Assembly: GCF_044324875.1 (NCBI RefSeq) | Contig: NZ_CP172185.1 | DNA length: 64,000 nucleotides | Reading direction: 5' to 3' (one strand) | Origin: Escherichia coli | GTDB lineage: Bacteria; Pseudomonadota; Gammaproteobacteria; Enterobacterales; Enterobacteriaceae | In this document: in pieces, positions 5,336-60,296 of the stretch | Numbering within the stretch: the first letter of the stretch is position 1 | Layout of the letters: the number at the start of each line of letters is the position of its first letter | Notes under the pieces: generated by a model | Told to the model about the DNA's origin: nothing | Databases searched by the model: none | Seen by the model: only the letters and a program-made list of their open reading frames with translations | Program-made: the position numbers and the translations under genes

Positions 5336-7432
5336 TTAGCGGAAATTGACGCTACGGTCGCTGGTCATGTCATACAACTGGAACTTACGCCCAAGTTGCT
5401 GACCACCGTCACGCGTCAGCGGCGTCCAGCCAATCGCCGCACGGCTGCGTGTCGGGCCAGACGAGAAGAGATCCAACGGTACAGAGACATACACGCCTTT
5501 GGTGAAGTCCCCTTCGCCGTACTCCTCTTTCGAAACGTTGGTGATCGTGGCATAGCCGCCAACCACCACGCCGCTGTCAAAGCGTTTGGCTATTTCCAGC
5601 GTGCCGCCTTTATCCCCTGCCAGATACTGCCCGACGCTCGCTTTCACTAACACATCCTGAGCAAAAGATGGCGTCCAGTAGGCGGTCAGATGTCCGGTTT
5701 TCACGCTGTAGTCGGTGAATTTCATCATATCTTTTGCACTACGCCAGTCGCGCTGTTTAACGTAGTTGGCATCCAGACCAAACGCCCAGTTGCTGTCCAG
5801 CGGGCGATACAACACTTCTGCCCCCGCACCGCCAAACATGGTTTCGAGATAACCACCGTAGACCTGACCGTAGAAGCCGTTGCCCAGATGCTGGAAGTAG
5901 TTGGCTTGCAGGTTATTCACATAGACATCATTCTGCACATACTCGCGCACATGGGTACGAACGCGCGGTAAGTGCGAGTCCTGCGGTGGATTGGTGTAGT
6001 TAAACTTGTCGTAGTTGTTGGCAAGATTTGCAAAAAGGCTGCCAGTGGTCAGCAGATGGTCCGTCAGCCACAAATCTGCCGTTCCCATCACGCCCAGCTG
6101 ATACATGTAAAAGTTTTCCGGGCCACCGACCGACTGGTTCAGCACCGGATCGATATGGAAATCAAAGCGTGATTTGTCGATATACCAGCCCTGCTCGGTG
6201 GACTGCGGAACCACTGGCTCGACGCGTTTTTGCGCCAGCGTCGTTTCGTGGCCCAACGGCTCTCCGGCGAGATGATTTTTCAGGCTGGCGACATCGGTTT
6301 CCGTCGTCACCTGCGGCATGTTAAGGCGATTTTCCGTAATGCGGATCGTTTTGATCCCATCCGGCAGATCGTTCATCACGATCCGATTAGCACGGATGAT
6401 CCCTTCACGCGAATCACGATATTTCACCTGCTCGCCGGTGACATACAGCGTATCGCCTTTCGCCTGGATCTGCGGATCGGCCAGTCCGGCGTTGTATTTC
6501 AACAGCGTTAACTGATTCGCCACCACCGAGTGCTGCAAAATGGCATCCTGCGACTGCGGTTGATATTGCGGGCGGGCGTTATCGTTGTAAGACGGGCGCA
6601 GATCGTTAAAGTTGGTGCGCAACGTAACGCCAAACATAAAGGTGTTGCCACGTTCATAGCTAAGGTTAACGTCGGCCCAATCGGTAACGCGATAAATCGC
6701 CCCGACGTTAAACTTACTTTTTTGCTCCAGCTTCCCGGCAAAATCCTGCTGATAATTATTACCTTCATACTCCAGTTTCAGGCGCAGCGGTTGCCAGGGC
6801 GTCTGGTATTCCACGCCGCCAAACAGTGAGGCAGGACCGTGGAACATCTGGCTACCGTCGATAGATCCCGCTTGTTTGTAGCTGTTATCGCGATAGCAAT
6901 ATTTATCGCTGGCTGAACAGAGCGGATTTTTTACATTACCGCTGGTGCCCAGATATCCCCAGCCCAGGCCGAGCGTAAAATCGAACGGCCCCCAGGCTTT
7001 GCTGGCAACAAGATATTCCGCATCAAACAGCCCCGTACCGCCGATATCCCGCGCACCAACCGCCACTTGCGGCAGCCAATAACTCTCTTCCCACAAACGC
7101 AGTTTGAGATCGAAGGCTTTATCTTTATACGTTTGATCACCAGAGAACGCTTCGACGCTGCTGTACTGCCGGGTGCGCACGTCGGTGTAGCGCAGCGTTG
7201 TTTCCAGCCACGGGAAGAGTTGCACTGAAGCTGAGTAATAACGGTACTGATCGTTATCTCGATAGTTCAGGCTCAACTCCCCTTCCCGCGCCATGCGCGC
7301 GGTGGGCGTTTGTAATAATCCTACGCCACCGAAATCCGACTGCGACGGACCAATGGGCGCAGGATATGTTTCGCCGTAGCAAGCTGTGCTAATGCCCAGC
7401 GCCAGTAAGCTAAGCAGATGTCTTTTTTTCAT
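5336..7432 (-). CDS. yjbH: YjbH, GfcD-family outer-membrane lipoprotein/beta-barrel of the yjbEFGH exopolysaccharide operon (698 aa)
   Basis: 698-aa ORF with signal peptide ([20 protein letters not shown]), C-terminal F residue typical of OM beta-barrels; synteny with yjbEFG. Confidence 0.9.
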
Positions 7433-9160: not shown

Positions 9161-9468
9161 AACAATTTCCCTTCATTGAATGAATGGAGATTTACCCAAA
9201 AACATTTCGGGCGGGATCGAGTATACACAACTAAAGCATGCGAATTACGGTGTGGGGAATTAGCGATGGGGTTTTAGGATAATTGGAATGAATATCAAAT
9301 ATAAGTTTCAACTTATATATAAATAAGATTAAAAATCAAAAAGTTAAAATAGAATCAAAAATAATCAACCTACGTATTTTCCGAAATCAATCACGATTAA
9401 AAATTTATTTTAGGATTAACCTCACAGCATGATTTCCGTTAAATCACAGACAAGGGGATTTATCTGAT

Positions 9469-9495
9469 AAAAAATGCCGACATAACGTCGGCATT
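9469..9495 (-). terminator. Rho-independent terminator of pgi
   Basis: Minus-strand hairpin AATGCCGACGTTATGTCGGCATT followed by TTTTTT, 19 bp downstream of the pgi stop. Confidence 0.75.
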
Positions 9496-9513
9496 GTTAT
9501 TAAGGTTATTTAA

Positions 9514-11399: not shown

Positions 11400-11687
11400 C
11401 AGGCCAGAAGAGGCGCGTTGCCCAAGTAACGGTGTTGGAGGAGCCAGTCCTGTGATAACACCTGAGGGGGTGCATCGCCGAGGTGATTGAACGGCTGGCC
11501 ACGTTCATCATCGGCTACAGGGGCTGAATCCCCTGGGTTGTCACCAGAAGCGTTCGCAGTCGGGCGTTTCGCAAGTGGTGGAGCACTTCTGGGTGAAAAT
11601 AGTAGCGAAGTATCGCTCTGCGCCCACCCGTCTTCCGCTCTTCCCTTGTGCCAAGGCTGAAAATGGATCCCCTGACACGAGGTAGTT
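11400..11687 (+). ncRNA. Lysine riboswitch (L-box) in the lysC 5' leader
   Basis: Long structured leader directly upstream of lysC containing the conserved AGAGGCGC start and GG..GAGG..TGG..CCGA elements typical of the lysC L-box; boundaries approximate. Confidence 0.75.
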
Positions 11688-37326: not shown

Positions 37327-37446
37327 ATGCCTGGCAGTTCCCTACTCTCGCATGGGGAGACCCCACACTACCATCGGCGCTACGGCGTTTCACTTCTGAG
37401 TTCGGCATGGGGTCAGGTGGGACCACCGCGCTACGGCCGCCAGGCA
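37327..37446 (-). rRNA. rrfE: 5S ribosomal RNA (rrnE operon)
   Basis: Reverse complement reads TGCCTGGCGGCCGTAGCGCGGTGGTCCCACCTGACCCCATGCCGAACTCAGAAGTGAAACGCCGTAGCGCCGATGG...CCAGGCAT, the E. coli 5S sequence, 120 nt. Confidence 0.98.
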
Positions 37447-37544
37447 AATTCTGTTTTATCAACACGTCTCGTTATGACCTGTCGATTTAATCTGTATCAG
37501 GCTGAAAATCTTTCTCTCATCCGCCAAAACATCTTCGGCGTTGT

Positions 37545-40449
<2,905 letters not shown>

Positions 40450-40642
40450 TCACAACCCGAAGATGTTTCTTTCGATTCATCATCGTGTTGCGAAAATTTG
40501 AGAGACTCACGAACAACTTTCGTTGTTCAGTGTTTCAATTTTCAGCTTGATCCAGATTTTTAAAGAGCAAATATCTCAAACAAGACTTAACAGTCTGTTT
40601 TGAGATATTGAGGTCGGCGACTTTCACTCACAAACCAGCAAG

Positions 40643-40718
40643 TGGCGTCCCCTAGGGGATTCGAACCCCTGTTACCGCCGTGAAAGGGCGGTGTCCTGGG
40701 CCTCTAGACGAAGGGGAC
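40643..40718 (-). tRNA. gltV: tRNA-Glu (UUC) in the 16S-23S spacer
   Basis: Reverse complement GTCCCCTTCGTCTAGAGGCCCAGGACACCGCCCTTTCACGGCGGTAACAGGGGTTCGAATCCCCTAGGGGACGCCA, the E. coli tRNA-Glu sequence with encoded CCA. Confidence 0.97.
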
Positions 40719-40803
40719 GTATCAGTCTGCTTCGCAAGACGCCTTGCTTTTCACTTTCTATCAGACAATCTGTGTGAGCACTGCAAAGTACGCTTCTTTA
40801 AGG

Positions 40804-42345
<1,542 letters not shown>

Positions 42346-42838: not shown

Positions 42839-42854
42839 GCGCAAACGTTTTCGT
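42839..42854. promoter_or_regulatory. PurR operator (PUR box) of the purHD operon
   Basis: GCGCAAACGTTTTCGT matches the PurR consensus ACGCAAACGTTTTCTT at 14/16; about 108 bp upstream of the purH start. Confidence 0.7.
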
Positions 42855-42961
42855 TACAATGCGGGCGAAAAATAAGGATGCCCCGTTAGGGGCGTTAGCT
42901 GAGTTTTTCGCGAAAAATTCAGCTAACGCTCTCTGTAATAGTCAAATCCAGGGGATTTACC

Positions 42962-44562: not shown

Positions 44563-45852
44563 ATGAAAGTATTAGTGATTGGTAACGGCGGGCGCGAGCA
44601 CGCGCTGGCCTGGAAAGCGGCCCAGTCGCCGCTGGTTGAAACTGTTTTTGTTGCTCCGGGTAACGCAGGCACTGCGCTGGAGCCTGCACTGCAAAACGTC
44701 GCTATCGGCGTAACCGATATCCCGGCGCTGCTGGATTTCGCGCAAAACGAAAAGATCGATCTAACCATCGTCGGCCCGGAAGCGCCGCTGGTGAAAGGCG
44801 TGGTGGATACCTTCCGCGCCGCCGGGCTGAAAATCTTCGGCCCAACCGCAGGTGCCGCGCAGCTGGAAGGCTCGAAAGCGTTTACCAAGGATTTCCTGGC
44901 CCGCCATCAGATCCCTACGGCGGAATACCAGAACTTCACCGAGGTAGAACCTGCGCTGGCGTATCTGCGTGAGAAAGGCGCGCCGATCGTCATTAAAGCT
45001 GACGGTCTGGCAGCGGGTAAAGGCGTTATCGTCGCGATGACGCAGGAAGAAGCCGAAGCGGCTGTTCACGATATGCTGGCGGGCAACGCTTTTGGCGACG
45101 CGGGTCATCGCATTGTTATCGAAGAGTTCCTCGACGGCGAAGAAGCGAGCTTTATCGTGATGGTGGACGGTGAGCATGTGCTGCCGATGGCCACCAGCCA
45201 GGATCACAAACGCGTAGGCGATAAAGATACCGGGCCGAACACCGGCGGGATGGGCGCTTACTCCCCTGCGCCAGTAGTGACCGATGAGGTTCATCAGCGC
45301 ACGATGGAACGAATCATCTGGCCAACCGTGAAAGGCATGGCGGCAGAAGGCAACACCTACACCGGTTTTCTCTACGCGGGCCTGATGATCGACAAACAGG
45401 GCAATCCGAAGGTTATCGAATTTAACTGCCGCTTTGGCGATCCGGAAACCCAGCCGATTATGCTGCGCATGAAGTCCGATCTGGTTGAGCTCTGCCTGGC
45501 AGCCTGTGAAGGTACGCTTGACGAGAAAACGTCCGAGTGGGATGAACGCGCTTCTCTCGGCGTGGTGATGGCTGCGGGTGGATATCCGGGCGATTACCGC
45601 ACCGGCGATGTGATCCACGGCCTGCCGCTGGAAGAAGTGTCTGACGGCAAAGTGTTCCACGCGGGCACGAAACTGGCGGATGACGAGCAGGTAGTGACCA
45701 GCGGCGGGCGCGTACTGTGCGTCACCGCGCTGGGTCATACCGTGGCAGAAGCGCAGAAACGCGCTTATGCCTTAATGACCGATATCCATTGGGACGACTG
45801 CTTCTGCCGGAAAGATATCGGCTGGCGCGCTATCGAACGCGAGCAGAACTAA
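44563..45852 (+). CDS. purD: Phosphoribosylamine-glycine ligase PurD (429 aa)
   Basis: MKVLVIGNGGREHALAWKAAQSPLVETVFVAPGNAGTALEP...; 11 bp after purH. Confidence 0.98.
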   Translation: MKVLVIGNGGREHALAWKAAQSPLVETVFVAPGNAGTALEPALQNVAIGVTDIPALLDFAQNEKIDLTIVGPEAPLVKGVVDTFRAAGLKIFGPTAGAAQLEGSKAFTKDFLARHQIPTAEYQNFTEVEPALAYLREKGAPIVIKADGLAAGKGVIVAMTQEEAEAAVHDMLAGNAFGDAGHRIVIEEFLDGEEASFIVMVDGEHVLPMATSQDHKRVGDKDTGPNTGGMGAYSPAPVVTDEVHQRTMERIIWPTVKGMAAEGNTYTGFLYAGLMIDKQGNPKVIEFNCRFGDPETQPIMLRMKSDLVELCLAACEGTLDEKTSEWDERASLGVVMAAGGYPGDYRTGDVIHGLPLEEVSDGKVFHAGTKLADDEQVVTSGGRVLCVTALGHTVAEAQKRAYALMTDIHWDDCFCRKDIGWRAIEREQN

Positions 45853-47174
45853 CGCGACAGTTTTGCCAAGAGCGTTTTGCGCGTGATCCCTAACTGACGG
45901 GCGGCTTCGGTTTTGTTGCCGCCCGTTTTCTCCAGTGCCGCAAGAATCACCTCTTTTTCGACTTCCACCAGCGGCTGAATATCCTGACTTTGTACCAGCG
46001 GGATCGGCGTACTCGCAATCGCCAGCGGCAGCTCGCGTTCGGAAATATATTCCCCGGTCAGCAGCACCACCGCCCGTTCCACCGCGTTTTCCAGTTCACG
46101 AATATTTCCCGGCCAGTCGTAGTGAATCAGCAGATCCATCGCCTGGGGCGTAAAACCTTTTACCGCCTTGCGATTACGCTCGGCAAAGCGCTGAAGAAAA
46201 TGGTTTGCCAGCAGAGGAATATCTTCCCGCCGCTGACGCAGCGACGGTACTTCAATCGCCACCACGTTCAGGCGATAGTAGAGATCCTGGCGAAAACGCC
46301 CGGCATTCACCTCTGCGGCAAGATCGCGATGAGTCGCCGCAATCAGCCGGACATCAACCGAGATGGTCTGGTTGCTGCCGACACGCTGAACTTCGCGCTC
46401 CTGAATCGCACGCAGCAGACGAACCTGCATCATCGGCGAGATATCGCCAATTTCATCGAGAAACAGCGTGCCGCCGTCCGCCTCAACAAAGCGCCCTTCC
46501 CGGCGTTTATCGGCTCCGGTAAACGCCCCTTTTTCGTGACCGAACAATTCAGATTCCAGCAAGGATTCGTTGAGTGCCGCACAGTTGAGCGTTACCAGTG
46601 GTTTTTCACTCCGTGCGCTACTGGCGTGAATCGCCCTGGCGACCAGCTCTTTACCGGTGCCGGAATCACCGTGGATCAGCACTGTGGCTTCCGATGGCGC
46701 GACGAGGGCGATTTCACTGAGCAGGTGTTGCATCGCCGGGCTTTTACCGACCATCCCGAACTGGCTGGCAGACACCGCAGGCGTTTCAGCGTCAACACTG
46801 TGCGTATGCGCGAGCGCCTTTTCCAGCGTTGCCTGCAGGTTATCGAAATCCAGCGGCTTGATGAGATAATCCAGCGCCCCGGTTTTCAGTGCTTCTACCG
46901 CCGTCTCGACGCTGGAGTACGCGGTCATAATCAGTACCGGAATCGCCGGATTTAACGCTTTGATCTCTTTCAGCGTGGCGATGCCGTCCATCTCCGCCAT
47001 TCGCACATCGCAAAGCACGAGATCAAAAACCTGTTCCCGCACCTGCTCCAGCGCCTGTCGCCCGCTGTTCGCCAGCGCGACGTTATAGCCCCAGCCGCGC
47101 AGCAAAGCCTGCAAAATAGTGCAGTGGCTAATGTCATCATCCACCACCAGAATATCGATATTATCGTGCGTCAT
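45849..47174 (-). CDS. zraR: Sigma54-dependent response regulator ZraR/HydG (441 aa)
   Basis: Receiver domain, AAA+ sigma54-interaction domain (GESGTGKE Walker A, GAFTGA motif) and C-terminal HTH; 4-nt overlap with zraS. Confidence 0.95.
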
Positions 47175-48547
47175 CCTTGTGGGTCCTTACGCGTAATATT
47201 GACCGGAAGCCAGAGGGTGAACGTTGCGCCTTTTCCCTCCTGGCTTGCGACCTGAATTGTACCACCGTGTTGTTCAACAATATTATGCACGACCGCCAGC
47301 CCCAGTCCGGTACCTTCGGCTTTGGTGGTGAAGTACGGGGTGAAGATGGCTTCAAGCTGATCTGCCGCAATTCCCTTACCGCTGTCGGTAACGCTGATTT
47401 TCACGCCCGCGCCGCTTTCGCTGGCCGTCACGCTAATCACACCATGTTGACCAATCGCCTGAATAGCATTGAGATAGAGATTCAACAGGACCTGAGTCAG
47501 CCTGTCCGGATCGGCCTGAATTTCCGGTAATGTGTCGTTGGCGGTAAAGCGTAACTGGATCTCCCGGCAGTTTGCATCCTGGCTTACCAGCTGTAATGAG
47601 TGGTTAATCAGCGTGTTGAGATCCACCGCCTGCAAAGCCAGATGCGTTGGCTTAACCAGTTCCAGCAACTCGCTTACCACGCGGTTTAAACGGTCGGCTT
47701 CTTTCGCCATCACCTGCGCCAGTTGATGCGCTTCTCCCCCTGCTGGCGCGCGTTCGGCAAAGTATTTCGCCAGCCCTTTAATCGAGGAAAGTGGGTTACG
47801 GATTTCGTGGGCAACTCCTGCCGCAAGATGCCCCAGCGCCACCAGCTTCTCTTTGCGCTTCATTTCATCCTGCAATAGCTGGCGCGAGCGCAGATAGCGA
47901 CGATACCAGAAGAATGACAACACGCTTGCCAGCAAGACCGTCGCCAGGGCGAAGAGGATAATCAGGGTGTTTCTCTGCTCACGATCCTCAGCACTCACAA
48001 TGTTACTGGCGTCGAAAGCGATAAAAATTGCTTGTGGTGTCGCGGCATACTGCTGCATATGGCGCATCCGGTGCATTCCAGCAGCAAACATCGGTTGAAA
48101 CTGGCGATAAATTTCCAGAACAGGCTCGCCGTCTGCGCTATCGATCCGCCGCCACGCTTCTTCATCTCCCGGATGTAACTGCTGCATTTCCTGCGGGGAA
48201 TAAAGCTGTTTTCCCACCATGCCGGAGTTGCTATGCATCACGATTGTTCCTTGTTCATCCGTGACCGCAAACCAACGTACACCAGGTTGCCCGGCCATTT
48301 CTTCCAGTAATGCCTGCTGCTGCGCATGATGCATGCGCATCCCCATGCCGACGCGCGAGCCGGATTCGAGAGCACGGATAAGTACACTGCCTTTTTCCAG
48401 CAGCGTTTGTCTGGCGGCGGCAGTCTCGCGCCCATAATCGCGAATCACTGTCACCGCAAACAGCCCCACCAGCCCAACAATGACCACGGGGAGGATCGCG
48501 CTTAACCATTTAGCTAAGGAGTCTTTAGAACGTTGCATAAAACGCAT
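47171..48547 (-). CDS. zraS: Sensor histidine kinase ZraS/HydH (458 aa ORF; start uncertain by a few codons)
   Basis: Two TM segments, HAMP-less periplasmic domain, H-box (HEIRNPL) and ATPase N/G boxes. Confidence 0.93.
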   Translation of the reverse strand: MRFMQRSKDSLAKWLSAILPVVIVGLVGLFAVTVIRDYGRETAAARQTLLEKGSVLIRALESGSRVGMGMRMHHAQQQALLEEMAGQPGVRWFAVTDEQGTIVMHSNSGMVGKQLYSPQEMQQLHPGDEEAWRRIDSADGEPVLEIYRQFQPMFAAGMHRMRHMQQYAATPQAIFIAFDASNIVSAEDREQRNTLIILFALATVLLASVLSFFWYRRYLRSRQLLQDEMKRKEKLVALGHLAAGVAHEIRNPLSSIKGLAKYFAERAPAGGEAHQLAQVMAKEADRLNRVVSELLELVKPTHLALQAVDLNTLINHSLQLVSQDANCREIQLRFTANDTLPEIQADPDRLTQVLLNLYLNAIQAIGQHGVISVTASESGAGVKISVTDSGKGIAADQLEAIFTPYFTTKAEGTGLGLAVVHNIVEQHGGTIQVASQEGKGATFTLWLPVNITRKDPQG

Positions 48548-48578
48548 CTTCTTCTTTGCCTGCTCATCCCTTTCTGAC

Positions 48579-48594
48579 AGCAGAAATCATGCCA
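48579..48594 (-). promoter_or_regulatory. Candidate sigma54 promoter for zraSR (TGGCAT-N5-CTGCT on the minus strand)
   Basis: GG/GC dinucleotides at -24/-12 spacing; 32 bp upstream of the zraS start. Confidence 0.45.
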
Positions 48595-48645
48595 TCTTTT
48601 ATCAGCGCTTACCCTGCGCTGTAACACAAAGGCTTAAGTTTCAAT

Positions 48646-48691
48646 GAGTAAAAATGACTCGCTACCCGCAGCAGGCGAGTCATTCTTACTC
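48646..48691. promoter_or_regulatory. Inverted repeat, probable ZraR enhancer (UAS) shared by the divergent zraP and zraSR promoters
   Basis: GAGTAAAAATGACTCGC ... GCGAGTCATTCTTACTC: 17-bp arms matching at 16/17 separated by 12 bp, midway between the two sigma54 promoters. Confidence 0.6.
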
Positions 48692-48733
48692 GTTTATCAT
48701 GCCAGATTACCCGTCATATCAGCGTTTCATCGT

Positions 48734-48749
48734 TGGCACGGAAGATGCA
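48734..48749 (+). promoter_or_regulatory. Sigma54 promoter of zraP (TGGCAC-N5-ATGCA)
   Basis: Near-consensus -24/-12 element 36 bp upstream of the zraP ATG. Confidence 0.7.
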
Positions 48750-48784
48750 ATACCCGAAGTAAGACAACCACTGGAGGATTAACC

Positions 48785-49210
48785 ATGAAACGGAACACGA
48801 AAATTGCCCTGGTAATGATGGCGCTTTCAGCAATGGCGATGGGATCGACATCTGCATTTGCTCACGGCGGACACGGTATGTGGCAGCAAAATGCCGCGCC
48901 TTTGACCAGCGAACAACAGACAGCGTGGCAGAAAATCCATAATGACTTTTACGCTCAAAGCAGCGCACTGCAACAGCAACTGGTGACGAAGCGTTATGAA
49001 TACAATGCCCTGTTAGCCGCGAACCCACCGGATAGCAGCAAAATTAACGCGGTCGCCAAAGAGATGGAGAATTTGCGTCAGTCGTTAGATGAGTTACGGG
49101 TGAAACGGGATATTGCGATGGCTGAAGCGGGTATTCCGCGCGGAGCCGGAATGGGCATGGGCTACGGCGGCTGCGGTGGTGGCGGTCATATGGGTATGGG
49201 CCACTGGTAA
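48785..49210 (+). CDS. zraP: Zinc-resistance-associated periplasmic protein ZraP (141 aa, signal peptide, Gly/Met/His-rich C-terminus)
   Basis: MKRNTKIALVMMALSAMAMGSTSAFAHGGHGMWQQ...GMGMGYGGCGGGGHMGMGHW; GGAGGA RBS 7 nt upstream of this ATG (ORF track begins 47 codons earlier, inside the promoter region). Confidence 0.93.
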   Translation: MKRNTKIALVMMALSAMAMGSTSAFAHGGHGMWQQNAAPLTSEQQTAWQKIHNDFYAQSSALQQQLVTKRYEYNALLAANPPDSSKINAVAKEMENLRQSLDELRVKRDIAMAEAGIPRGAGMGMGYGGCGGGGHMGMGHW

Positions 49211-49211
49211 A

Positions 49212-49913
49212 TCAGAACGTTTTCTCGTTGGGTTGCCAGCGACAGAAATCAGAGTTTGCCACTAACAGTAATTGCGAACCTTCGGGCGCTTCCAGCCATG
49301 CCACGCTGACATCAACAGAAGAGCGGCTCTGGCGGCGCTCGATATGCGCTATCGCCTGCGAATCTAAATCAGGTTTAATGGTTTGTCCTTCGCAGGTGGT
49401 CACGGTCTGTTCCATCGCATGCCAGCGCCCCTGGCGCAGCACGACTCTCCCCTGACGTAAAGCATCGCTAATCTGGCGGATCTGATCAGCACGATAACGG
49501 TATAAATCGATTTGGTCGTTAGAAAGCTGCTGCTTTTCCCCATCGGATTCACGTTGCATAAAGCTCAGATCGCCGCGATCGTCAAAACGCGCGCGAATGT
49601 TCACCGGCGGTTTGCTGTAAACATTGATATTGATGAGCGTAAGGTTATCGCCCTGCCAGCGATACTCTCGCGTGGTGGTATCGCCACTGCGCCACGGGCT
49701 AAACACGGCAAGCAGATGCACATTATCGCCGCTGTCTTTTCGCCAGATGCGTACCGCGCCCTGGTCTTCAGCAAATCCACTGGCGGTAAAGGGAGGAAGT
49801 GAAGAGTTGTGACTACAGGCAGTGAGAAACAGAGCGCCTGCCAGCATCAATGATCGACGCCAGAAAGACAAAAGGGGTGAAACCACCCCTTCGTTAAAAC
49901 TGTTCACTGCCAC
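49212..49913 (-). CDS. yjaH: YjaH, DUF1481-family putative lipoprotein (about 231 aa)
   Basis: Signal peptide with lipobox (LFLTACS); position between zraP and hupA. Confidence 0.8.
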   Translation of the reverse strand: MAVNSFNEGVVSPLLSFWRRSLMLAGALFLTACSHNSSLPPFTASGFAEDQGAVRIWRKDSGDNVHLLAVFSPWRSGDTTTREYRWQGDNLTLININVYSKPPVNIRARFDDRGDLSFMQRESDGEKQQLSNDQIDLYRYRADQIRQISDALRQGRVVLRQGRWHAMEQTVTTCEGQTIKPDLDSQAIAHIERRQSRSSVDVSVAWLEAPEGSQLLLVANSDFCRWQPNEKTF

Positions 49914-54324: not shown

Positions 54325-54445
54325 CCCGTTTGTGGGGCTAATTTCTTGTCGGAGTGCCTTAACTGGCTGAGACCGTTTATTCGGGATCCGCGGAACCTGA
54401 TCAGGCTAATACCTGCGAAGGGAACAAGAGTTAATCTGCTATCGC
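54325..54445 (+). ncRNA. TPP riboswitch (thi-box) in the thiC leader
   Basis: Conserved thi-box core CTGAGACCGTTTATTCGGGATCCGCGGAACCTGATCAGGCTAATACCTGCGAAGGGAACAAG upstream of thiC; boundaries approximate. Confidence 0.8.
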
Positions 54446-59885: not shown

Positions 59886-60133
59886 GACAGAATGTAAGAA
59901 CGTAAATTTATTCCGAGCCGCTACGGAAGATGAAAAACGCAAGGTTGTTGAAAGCGTTGTGTTTTTTTATGGTAGTGCCGTCAGCAGGAATGTTGTCCAG
60001 GGCGAAAAGCTTCTTCCTCGTTTCGCCCTGCCTTTCTTAAAAATTCCGTAATGCAAAGTCTGAAGCCATCGCCTGTTGAGCAATGAAAGAGATCTGATTG
60101 TAAGAGAGTAAATACTCAACTATGATAGAGACG

Positions 60134-60296
60134 AAAATAAGAACACATGTTCTCATCTTCTAGGATGCAGCAGACTGAAGAAATTCAGACATCCCGCAAC
60201 CTGCGATTATCGCAAGGTCAAGGCAAAGTCCGGTAATGGCGTTCTGAATACCAGAGATAATTCTCTGGCGAAACCCACCTTAAGGTGGGTTTTGTT
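60134..60296 (+). ncRNA. Candidate small RNA (SroH-like) in the thiH-htrC intergenic region
   Basis: Sigma70-like promoter TTGTAA-17bp-TATGAT (60098-60126) followed about 165 nt later by a strong plus-strand terminator AAACCCACC-TTAA-GGTGGGTTT + TGTTATTTT (60270-60296); no plausible ORF; K-12 is reported to encode sRNA SroH in this intergenic region (from memory). Confidence 0.35.

What the first reader, a model, noticed from the sequence alone, without database searches (positions are those of the whole stretch)
48548..48784. Compact divergent sigma54 control region with a 17-bp-arm palindrome between zraP and zraSR
Two oppositely oriented -24/-12 promoters (plus strand 48734-48749, minus strand 48579-48594) flank a near-perfect inverted repeat (48646-48662 and 48675-48691), consistent with a single ZraR enhancer site driving both transcription units. 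It is a good example of a bidirectional bEBP-dependent switch, though known biology.
Basis: partly seen in the sequence, partly recalled or inferred. Interest (0 to 1): 0.25.

Follow-up and report, generated by a model that had tools for sequence, protein, structure and literature searches.

The report
Shared ZraR enhancer, divergent sigma-54 promoters
This is the well-known control region between the E. coli zinc/envelope-stress genes zraP and zraSR, where one pair of ZraR binding boxes sits between two back-to-back sigma-54 promoters; it is real and strongly conserved, but ordinary.

Summary
The 237-bp gap 48548-48784 lies between zraS (minus strand) and zraP (plus strand) of an E. coli strain.

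- **Promoters.** The gap holds the only two matches to a -24/-12 pattern in the 64 kb. They rank 1 and 3 on a sigma-54 matrix built without them.
- **Palindrome.** The arms match at 16 of 17 positions; no shuffle of the window gave one.
- **Published support.** Sigma-54 ChIP-seq in K-12 and Salmonella reports exactly these motifs. The strongest ZraR ChIP-exo peak maps to 48655-48687, on the palindrome. Deleting zraR abolishes zraP induction and lowers zraS.
- **Refinement.** The "palindrome" is two 15-bp dyad boxes (GAGT-N7-ACTC) whose centres are 31 bp apart. Both boxes, the exact 16-nt spacer length and both promoters are kept in 17 loci from five genera. The spacer sequence is free.
- **Small extras.**
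  - The single arm mismatch (C at 48685) is private to this strain.
  - Escherichia has lost 11 bp, one helical turn, between box 2 and the zraP promoter.
  - No IHF-like or sigma-70-like site was found.

Verdict: already known biology, correctly read. Interest is low.

The parts
48734..48749 (+). zraP sigma-54 promoter (GG of the -24 element at 48735-36, GC of the -12 element at 48747-48). Predicted transcription start about 48760, giving a 25-nt leader.
   Evidence: Pattern match. Matrix score 15.4 bits, rank 3 in the window. Same 17-mer as sigma-54 ChIP-seq site OS38 in PMC4591121, which lists a distance of 25. Core conserved in 13 taxa.
48579..48594 (-). zraSR sigma-54 promoter (GG at 48593-92, GC at 48581-80). 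Predicted transcription start about 48568, giving a 21-nt leader.
   Evidence: Pattern match. Matrix score 17.8 bits, rank 1. Same 17-mer as ChIP-seq site OS39, distance 21. Nearly invariant in 13 taxa.
48646..48660 (.). ZraR box 1, GAGTAAAAATGACTC (dyad GAGT-N7-ACTC). Centre 48653, which is -85 from the zraS start and -107 from the zraP start.
   Evidence: Conserved as GRGTAAAAAYGACYC in 17 loci. Overlapped by ChIP-exo peak_9.
48661..48676 (.). 16-nt spacer between the boxes. Its length is invariant and its sequence is free.
   Evidence: Alignments. The fixed-gap pattern matches all 17 loci.
48677..48691 (.). ZraR box 2, GAGTCATTCTTACTC. Centre 48684, which is -76 from the zraP start and -116 from the zraS start. 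The C at 48685 is a strain-private substitution; all other sequences have T.
   Evidence: Overlapped by ChIP-exo peak_9.
48643..48694 (.). The whole inverted repeat as found by the repeat tool: 20-nt arms at 90%, 12 nt between them.
   Evidence: Chance estimate.
48785..49210 (+). zraP, the periplasmic chaperone and signalling modulator; the main target gene.
   Evidence: NCBIfam equivalog ZraP, 274 bits against a cut-off of 200. Annotation.
47171..48547 (-). zraS, the sensor histidine kinase (458 aa in this strain).
   Evidence: NCBIfam equivalog ZraS, 887 bits. Compared with K-12.
45849..47174 (-). zraR, the sigma-54-dependent response regulator (receiver domain, AAA+ domain with the GAFTGA motif, HTH_8 DNA-binding domain).
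   Evidence: the translation contains GAFTGA and the Walker A motif GDSGTGKE. NCBIfam equivalog ZraR, 996 bits. PDB 1OJL ZraR at E = 2e-178.
48609..48616 (.). Conserved block TTACCCTG (TAACCCTG in most genera), -41 to -48 from the zraS start. Unassigned; listed as possibly part of the control region.
   Evidence: Alignment. No known site matched.

Best explanation
This is the zraP-zraSR divergent control region of E. coli.

**Layout.** Two 15-bp dyad boxes, each GAGT-N7-ACTC, lie as mirror images. Their centres are 31 bp apart, about three helical turns, so both face the same side of the DNA. Together they form one enhancer placed midway between two outward-facing sigma-54 promoters.

**Proposed mechanism.**
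1. ZraS senses zinc or envelope stress and phosphorylates ZraR.
2. A ZraR dimer sits on each box through its C-terminal helix-turn-helix domain, and the bound dimers nucleate the active AAA+ hexamer.
3. The hexamer reaches the sigma-54 RNA polymerase closed complex at either promoter by looping about 60-70 bp of DNA, apparently without IHF.
4. ATP hydrolysis, transmitted through the GAFTGA loops, opens the promoter.

**Outputs.** One output is zraP, the strongly induced chaperone and feedback modulator. The other is zraSR, giving weaker positive autoregulation.

**What is shown and what is inferred.**
- Shown here: the sequence elements, their statistical significance, their conservation and their fixed geometry.
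- Shown in the literature: sigma-54 occupancy, ZraR occupancy and zraR dependence.
- Inferred: dimer-per-box binding, hexamer nucleation, and sharing of one enhancer by both promoters. This inference is by analogy with NtrC and AtoC and from the ZraR crystal structure.
For: - **Identity of the locus.**
- **Promoter motifs.** They are unique in the window and top-ranked. They are identical to published sigma-54 ChIP-seq sites for zraP and zraS. Both are sigma-54-dependent and bound in Salmonella.
- **Palindrome.** It is highly non-random.
- **ZraR binding.** ChIP-exo peak_9 (signal-to-noise 73) maps to 48655-48687. Genomic SELEX gave this spacer in 81 of 86 clones.
- **Dependence on zraR.** In the zraR deletion with zinc, zraP changes by log2 -12.7 and zraS by log2 -3.2.
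- **Conservation.** Seventeen loci from Escherichia, Citrobacter, Salmonella, Kosakonia and Pluralibacter keep both boxes, an exact 16-nt spacer of free sequence, and both promoters.
- **Geometry.** Box 1 sits at -84 or -85 from the zraS start everywhere. The only length change on the zraP side is 11 bp, one helical turn.
- **No other promoter or RNA element.** No sigma-70-like promoter or terminator and no Rfam family.
- **The regulator is intact.** ZraR has GAFTGA and matches the solved ZraR structure 1OJL, which has six chains.
- **Published statement.** A review states that ZraR controls divergent sigma-54 promoters for zraSR and zraP.
Against: - I could not read the original footprinting paper (Leonhartsberger et al. 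2001, J Mol Biol 307:93). The base-level limits of ZraR protection come from ChIP-exo and conservation, plus my memory of its abstract ('two inverted repeats separated by a 14 bp spacer').
- A second ZraR ChIP-exo peak (signal-to-noise 34) maps to 48775-48800, at the zraP start codon, where there is no box. I read it as ZraR cross-linked to polymerase through the loop, but that is an inference.
- Transcription starts are predicted from the motifs, not measured here.
- This strain carries C instead of T at a position of box 2 that is invariant elsewhere. Its effect is unknown.
Confidence: 0.93

Rival explanations
1. There are two dedicated enhancers rather than one shared enhancer. Box 1 alone would activate the nearer zraSR promoter and box 2 alone the nearer zraP promoter.
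For: Each box is a complete dyad, GAGT-N7-ACTC. Each lies at a similar distance from its nearer promoter: -85 for box 1 and zraS, and -76 (Escherichia) or -87 (other genera) for box 2 and zraP.
Against: The box-to-box distance is invariant at exactly 31 bp in 17 loci, while the spacer sequence drifts. That argues the two boxes work as a unit. ChIP-exo reports one peak spanning both. Related activators use paired sites to build one oligomer: AtoC uses two inverted 20-bp sites, and NtrC does so from established knowledge.
Confidence: 0.05
2. The palindrome is not a ZraR site but something else, such as an operator for another regulator or a structural element like a cruciform or terminator hairpin.
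For: Long palindromes can be operators for many dimeric regulators. A baeR deletion changes zraP expression in the same dataset.
Against: The palindrome lies upstream of both predicted starts, so it is not transcribed. The terminator scan found nothing and Rfam found nothing. ZraR ChIP-exo and SELEX place ZraR there. It is conserved together with zraPSR in five genera.
Confidence: 0.01
3. One or both -24/-12 matches are chance, and transcription is really driven by sigma-70.
For: A loose -24/-12 pattern does occur by chance: 5 of 100 shuffles had two or more matches somewhere in 64 kb.
Against: Both matches fall in a 237-bp gap, each oriented toward a gene and 21-25 nt from its start codon. 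They rank 1 and 3 on the matrix. Both are occupied by sigma-54 in vivo in K-12 and Salmonella. No sigma-70-like promoter was found. Both are conserved.
Confidence: 0.01

Closest known systems
E. coli K-12 zraP-zraSR (hydHG) intergenic region (Leonhartsberger et al. 2001; sigma-54 sites OS38 and OS39 of Bonocora et al. 2015)
   Same: It is the same locus. The 291 aligned bases around the gap are identical except for one base. Both promoter motifs, both boxes and all spacings are the same.
   Different: The window has C at 48685 where K-12 and 4,356 other complete E. coli genomes have T, so its palindrome is 16/17 rather than perfect. This strain's ZraS also has a divergent periplasmic domain.
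AtoC enhancer of atoDAEB (E. coli)
   Same: AtoC is the closest paralogue of ZraR, being the second-best NCBIfam match. [quoted passage not shown] Its enhancer is two inverted copies of a site forming a long palindrome upstream of the promoter (PMC3118216).
   Different: The AtoC sites are 20 bp each and serve a single promoter. The box sequence is unrelated to GAGT-N7-ACTC.
NorR sites in the norR-norVW divergent region (E. coli)
   Same: The half-site logic is the same, GT-N7-AC dyads (PMC2831303). The sites sit in a divergent gap next to the regulator gene and drive a sigma-54 promoter.
   Different: NorR needs three sites plus IHF, and only norVW is sigma-54-dependent. Here there are two boxes, no IHF-like site and two sigma-54 promoters.
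NtrC enhancer at glnAp2
   Same: From established knowledge: two strong dyad sites about three helical turns apart nucleate the active oligomer, which loops to a sigma-54 closed complex.
   Different: NtrC sites lie further upstream (about -108 and -140) and serve one promoter. The ZraR boxes are closer (-76 to -116) and lie between two promoters.
FhlA-controlled hycA-hypA divergent sigma-54 promoters
   Same: This is another E. coli gap with two back-to-back sigma-54 promoters (OS27 and OS28) under one activator.
   Different: The activator family branch is different (GAF domains, formate-sensing), as is the enhancer sequence, CATTTCGTACGAAATG.

Membership tests
sigma-54 (-24/-12) promoter | GG and GC doublets ten bases apart within a TGGCAC-N5-TTGCW-like sequence | tested here: met
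   TGGCACGGAAGATGCA (+) and TGGCATGATTTCTGCT (-). Matrix scores 15.4 and 17.8 bits, against a training range of 9.0-21.8 and a median of 15.7.
sigma-54 (-24/-12) promoter | Oriented toward a gene and at a short distance from it | tested here: met
   Predicted leaders are 25 nt (zraP) and 21 nt (zraS). These equal the distances listed in PMC4591121.
sigma-54 (-24/-12) promoter | Occupied by sigma-54 holoenzyme in vivo, with transcription dependent on rpoN | not testable with these tools
   Published for the identical K-12 sequence (ChIP-seq fold-above-threshold 39 and 9) and for Salmonella (ChIP-chip, with 16-fold and 3.7-fold sigma-54-dependent expression).
sigma-54 (-24/-12) promoter | No competing sigma-70 promoter explains expression | tested here: met
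   No sigma-70-like site in 48400-49300, against 0.8 expected. This is a consensus scan only.
Enhancer (upstream activating sequence) of an NtrC-family activator | Two or more dyad-symmetric sites about 70-150 bp upstream of the promoter | tested here: met
   The two GAGT-N7-ACTC boxes are the only exact matches in 64 kb. They are centred at -76 and -107 (zraP) and -85 and -116 (zraS).
Enhancer (upstream activating sequence) of an NtrC-family activator | Sites and their phasing conserved among relatives while the surrounding DNA drifts | tested here: met
   All 17 loci from five genera match the fixed-gap pattern. The spacer and flanks are variable. The only indel toward zraP is 11 bp.
Enhancer (upstream activating sequence) of an NtrC-family activator | Bound by the cognate activator | not testable with these tools
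   Published ZraR ChIP-exo peak 4201786-4201818 maps to 48655-48687. Genomic SELEX found a single target. The footprint paper was not available.
Enhancer (upstream activating sequence) of an NtrC-family activator | A cognate activator with an AAA+ domain, a GAFTGA loop and a C-terminal HTH is encoded nearby | tested here: met
   zraR at 45849-47174 contains GAFTGA. NCBIfam ZraR equivalog, 996 bits. PDB 1OJL. Orthologues carry Response_reg, Sigma54_activat and HTH_8.
Enhancer (upstream activating sequence) of an NtrC-family activator | IHF site between the enhancer and the promoter (frequent, not obligatory) | tested here: not met
   No WATCAANNNNTTR match with up to one mismatch inside 48548-48784. 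This is not a defining feature; looping must rely on DNA flexibility or other factors.
ZraPSR envelope-stress system | zraP divergent from zraS-zraR, in the conserved purD / yjaH-hupA neighbourhood | tested here: met
   The same synteny holds in Salmonella, Kosakonia, Pluralibacter and Citrobacter.

The most novel reading that the evidence does not exclude
The enhancer's geometry may be tuned, not merely conserved. The evidence allows three linked readings:

- The Escherichia lineage lost exactly one helical turn (11 bp) between box 2 and the zraP promoter. This moved the boxes from -87/-118 to -76/-107, and it may change how one ZraR hexamer divides its activity between zraP and zraSR.
- This strain's private T-to-C change at an otherwise invariant central position of box 2 may weaken the enhancer.
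- The conserved, unassigned block TAACCCTG at -41 to -48 of the zraSR promoter may bind an additional factor.
Probability: 0.2. Interest if true: 0.3.

Novelty: already known. Interest (0 to 1): 0.1.

Why it matters
It matters little beyond confirmation. The region is a textbook-quality example of one activator site pair feeding two divergent sigma-54 promoters, and zraP promoters are used in zinc and lead biosensors.

The comparative result gives a clean ZraR box consensus, GRGTAAAAAYGACYC-N16-GRGTCATTTTTACTC. A 2016 review still listed the ZraR enhancer sequence as not known for Salmonella.

The one-helical-turn deletion in Escherichia is a neat natural illustration of face-of-helix constraint. 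Neither point changes current understanding.

Tried and rejected
- **IHF.** A consensus scan with up to one mismatch found no site in the gap, and window-wide hits equalled chance (46 against 47).
- **Sigma-70 promoter and intrinsic terminator.** None in 48400-49300.
- **Rfam.** Nothing in the gap.
- **Third ZraR box.** With up to two mismatches there is none in the intergenic gap or at the second ChIP-exo peak.
- **Second inverted repeat, 48723-48734 / 48781-48792, flanking the zraP promoter.** A repeat that good arises in 2.7% of shuffles of the region. Its left arm is not conserved outside Escherichia. I rejected it as chance or lineage-specific.
- **Direct repeat TATCAGCGYTT, 48600-48610 / 48717-48727.** It is confined to Escherichia. 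Rejected.
- **ACACAA block, 48624-48629.** It looked invariant in 8 taxa but degrades with more genera.
- **Second-ranked sigma-54 matrix hit, 6029-6045 (-).** It is intragenic and was not found in the main text of PMC4591121. Not pursued.
- **Original footprinting paper (PMID 11243806).** It is not held, and two literature searches for a quoted footprint failed.
- **Is the private SNP remarkable?** No. The strain is 1.2-1.4% divergent from the nearest complete genomes over 6-22 kb, so one private change in 61 nt is expected.

Full report
**1. What is there**

The window is E. coli. A 701-base query around the finding matches 5,420 of 5,426 complete E. coli genomes, and the region is annotated there as zraS and zraP.

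- The flanking ORFs are zraR (45849-47174, minus strand), zraS (47171-48547, minus strand) and zraP (48785-49210, plus strand).
- All three pass the NCBIfam equivalog cut-offs: 996, 887 and 274 bits.
- Annotated strains TCM3e1 and K-12 MG1655 show the same gene order, purD / zraR-zraS / zraP / yjaH-hupA.

**2.

Promoters:
- The plus strand at 48734-48749 reads TGGCACGGAAGATGCA. The minus strand at 48579-48594 reads TGGCATGATTTCTGCT.
- These are the only two matches to TGGCAYG-N5-TGCW in the 64 kb, against 0.27 expected.
- I built a sigma-54 weight matrix from the 40 other intergenic sites of Bonocora et al. (PMC4591121), leaving the two zra sites out.
- On this matrix the zraS site ranks first (17.8 bits) and the zraP site third (15.4 bits) of about 128,000 positions. 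Both scores lie inside the range of validated promoters.

Palindrome:
- The inverted repeat 48646-48662 / 48675-48691 is 16/17 complementary. It extends to 20-nt arms at 90%.
- No such repeat arose in 40 shuffles of the window.

**3. Published evidence for the same sequence**

The window differs from K-12 by one base over the 291 aligned bases. K-12 data therefore transfer directly, using window coordinate = 4250473 minus the NC_000913.3 coordinate.

- **Sigma-54 in E. coli.** ChIP-seq lists TTGGCACGGAAGATGCA for zraP (fold-above-threshold 39, distance 25). It lists ATGGCATGATTTCTGCT for zraS (fold-above-threshold 9, distance 21).
- **Sigma-54 in Salmonella.** Both promoters are bound by sigma-54. 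Both are expressed in a sigma-54-dependent manner, 16-fold for zraP and 3.7-fold for hydHG (PMC3844500).
- **ZraR ChIP-exo.** The strongest peak, 4201786-4201818 with signal-to-noise 73, maps to window 48655-48687. That runs from the middle of one arm to the middle of the other (PMC7657598 supplement).
- **Dependence on zraR.** In the same study, deleting zraR under zinc changed zraP by log2 -12.7 and zraS by log2 -3.2.
- **Genomic SELEX.** This spacer was ZraR's single high-affinity target, present in 81 of 86 clones (PMC8249747).
- **Review statement.** ZraR controls divergent sigma-54 promoters for zraSR and zraP (PMC4987338).
- **Gap in the evidence.** The original footprinting paper, Leonhartsberger et al. 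2001, is not held. From memory, its abstract describes two inverted repeats separated by a 14-bp spacer. That fits 17-bp sites at 48645-48661 and 48676-48692. This point is recollection, not a tool result.

**4. Refinement of the anatomy**

Each arm of the palindrome is itself a dyad:
- Box 1 is GAGTAAAAATGACTC (48646-48660).
- Box 2 is GAGTCATTCTTACTC (48677-48691).
- Both have the form GAGT-N7-ACTC, the same GT-N7-AC logic as NorR sites.
- They are the only exact matches to the box pattern in the window.
- Their centres are 31 bp apart, about three helical turns.

Predicted starts place the boxes at:

| Promoter | Predicted start | Box 1 centre | Box 2 centre |
|---|---|---|---|
| zraP | 48760 | -107 | -76 |
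| zraS | 48568 | -85 | -116 |

Other checks on the gap:
- The palindrome lies upstream of both starts, so it is not transcribed.
- No IHF-like site.
- No sigma-70-like promoter or terminator.
- No Rfam family.

**5. Comparative evidence**

I collected orthologous loci through ZraP. They come from four Escherichia species, several Citrobacter, Salmonella enterica, Kosakonia and Pluralibacter.

- **Composite pattern.** All 17 loci match GRGTAAAAAYGACYC-N16-GRGTCATTYTTACTC with an exact 16-nt gap. The spacer sequence and most of the surrounding gap are free to vary.
- **Promoter cores.** Both are conserved. CAGCAGAAATCATGCCA is nearly invariant.
- **zraS side.** Box 1 sits at -84 or -85 from the predicted zraS start in every taxon.
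- **zraP side.** Box 2 sits at -87 from the zraP start in the four non-Escherichia genera and at -76 or -75 in Escherichia.
- **Direction of change.** Because four other genera share the long form, parsimony reads this as an 11-bp deletion in Escherichia. That is one helical turn.
- **Symmetry.** The ancestral layout is almost mirror-symmetric: -84/-115 on one side and -87/-118 on the other.

Fixed box spacing, free spacer sequence and an integral-turn indel are what a phase-constrained, shared enhancer predicts.

**6. Mechanism (inferred steps marked)**

1. ZraS phosphorylates ZraR (established knowledge).
2. ZraR dimers bind the two boxes through the C-terminal HTH_8 domain. This is inferred from the dyad symmetry and from the ZraR structure 1OJL, which matches residues 141-441 at E = 2e-178 and has six chains.
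3. The bound dimers nucleate the AAA+ hexamer. This is inferred by analogy with NtrC and with AtoC, the closest paralogue, which uses two inverted 20-bp sites.
4. The hexamer contacts the closed complex at either promoter by looping. Its GAFTGA loops, present in the window's ZraR, use ATP to open the promoter.

The much stronger response of zraP than of zraS, and its higher sigma-54 occupancy, show that the two outputs are unequal.

A second ChIP-exo peak, signal-to-noise 34, maps to 48775-48800, downstream of the zraP start, where no box exists. I read it as ZraR cross-linked to polymerase through the loop. This is unproven.

**7. Strain-specific detail**

- The single arm mismatch is C at 48685. 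It is position 9 of box 2 and breaks the T5 tract.
- None of the 5,426 complete E. coli genomes carries the window's 61-nt enhancer exactly. The T version is exact in 4,356 of them.
- T is invariant in all other taxa examined.
- The strain is 1.2-1.4% diverged from its nearest complete relatives over 6-22 kb. One private change is therefore not statistically remarkable.
- Its functional effect is unknown and probably modest, because it lies at the centre of the dyad.

**8. Verdict**

This is established biology, so novelty is "already known" and interest is low. The comparative consensus and the one-turn deletion are minor additions.

Noticed in passing
window 48685: A T-to-C substitution in ZraR box 2 is private to this strain. 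It is absent from 5,426 complete E. coli genomes, and T is invariant in the 12 other taxa examined. It makes the palindrome 16/17 instead of perfect.
   Followed up: yes
window 47171-48547 (zraS), residues about 41-190: The periplasmic sensor domain of ZraS is strongly diverged from K-12, with many substitutions and a net 7-residue length difference. The transmembrane and cytoplasmic parts are about 99% identical, and overall identity is 85%. E. coli genomes fall into identity bands of >=99% (476), 95-99% (3,707) and 90-95% (1,237) for a 701-nt query here. This suggests distinct sensor-domain alleles maintained by recombination or selection.
   Followed up: partly
window about 48700-48733; L008-L017 upstream of zraP: Escherichia species have 11 bp less than Citrobacter, Salmonella, Kosakonia and Pluralibacter between box 2 and the zraP promoter. 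The difference is one helical turn.
   Followed up: yes
window 48609-48616: A conserved block, TTACCCTG (TAACCCTG in most genera), lies 14-21 nt upstream of the zraS -24 element, at -41 to -48. It matches no known site. Its reverse complement, CAGGGTAA, loosely resembles a ZraR half-site.
   Followed up: partly
window 48775-48800: A second published ZraR ChIP-exo peak (K-12 4201673-4201698, signal-to-noise 34) maps onto the zraP ribosome-binding site and start codon. No ZraR box is present there.
   Followed up: partly
window 42892-42929: This is the only other long palindrome in the window: GCGTTAGCTGAGTTTTTCG / CGAAAAATTCAGCTAACGC, 19-nt arms with no loop. It lies just downstream of a PurR-box-like GCGCAAACGTTTTCGT (42839-42854), apparently in the purH leader.
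   Followed up: no
window 6029-6045 (-): The second-best sigma-54 matrix hit in the window is CTGGCAGCCTTTTTGCA at 15.5 bits. It lies inside, and in the sense direction of, a 698-aa ORF (5336-7432). It was not found in the main text of the sigma-54 ChIP-seq paper.
   Followed up: partly
window 37329-42345, 54340-54440, 11400-11596, 60133-60293, 9357-9505: Rfam landmarks across the window are an rRNA operon with a tRNA, a TPP riboswitch, a lysine riboswitch, and the sRNAs sroH and STnc430. All are expected for this part of the E. coli chromosome.
   Followed up: no
L013 350-1936: The Salmonella zraS gene call of 528 aa runs into the intergenic region and over the enhancer. It is almost certainly an over-extended start, since E. 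coli ZraS is 458-465 aa.
   Followed up: no
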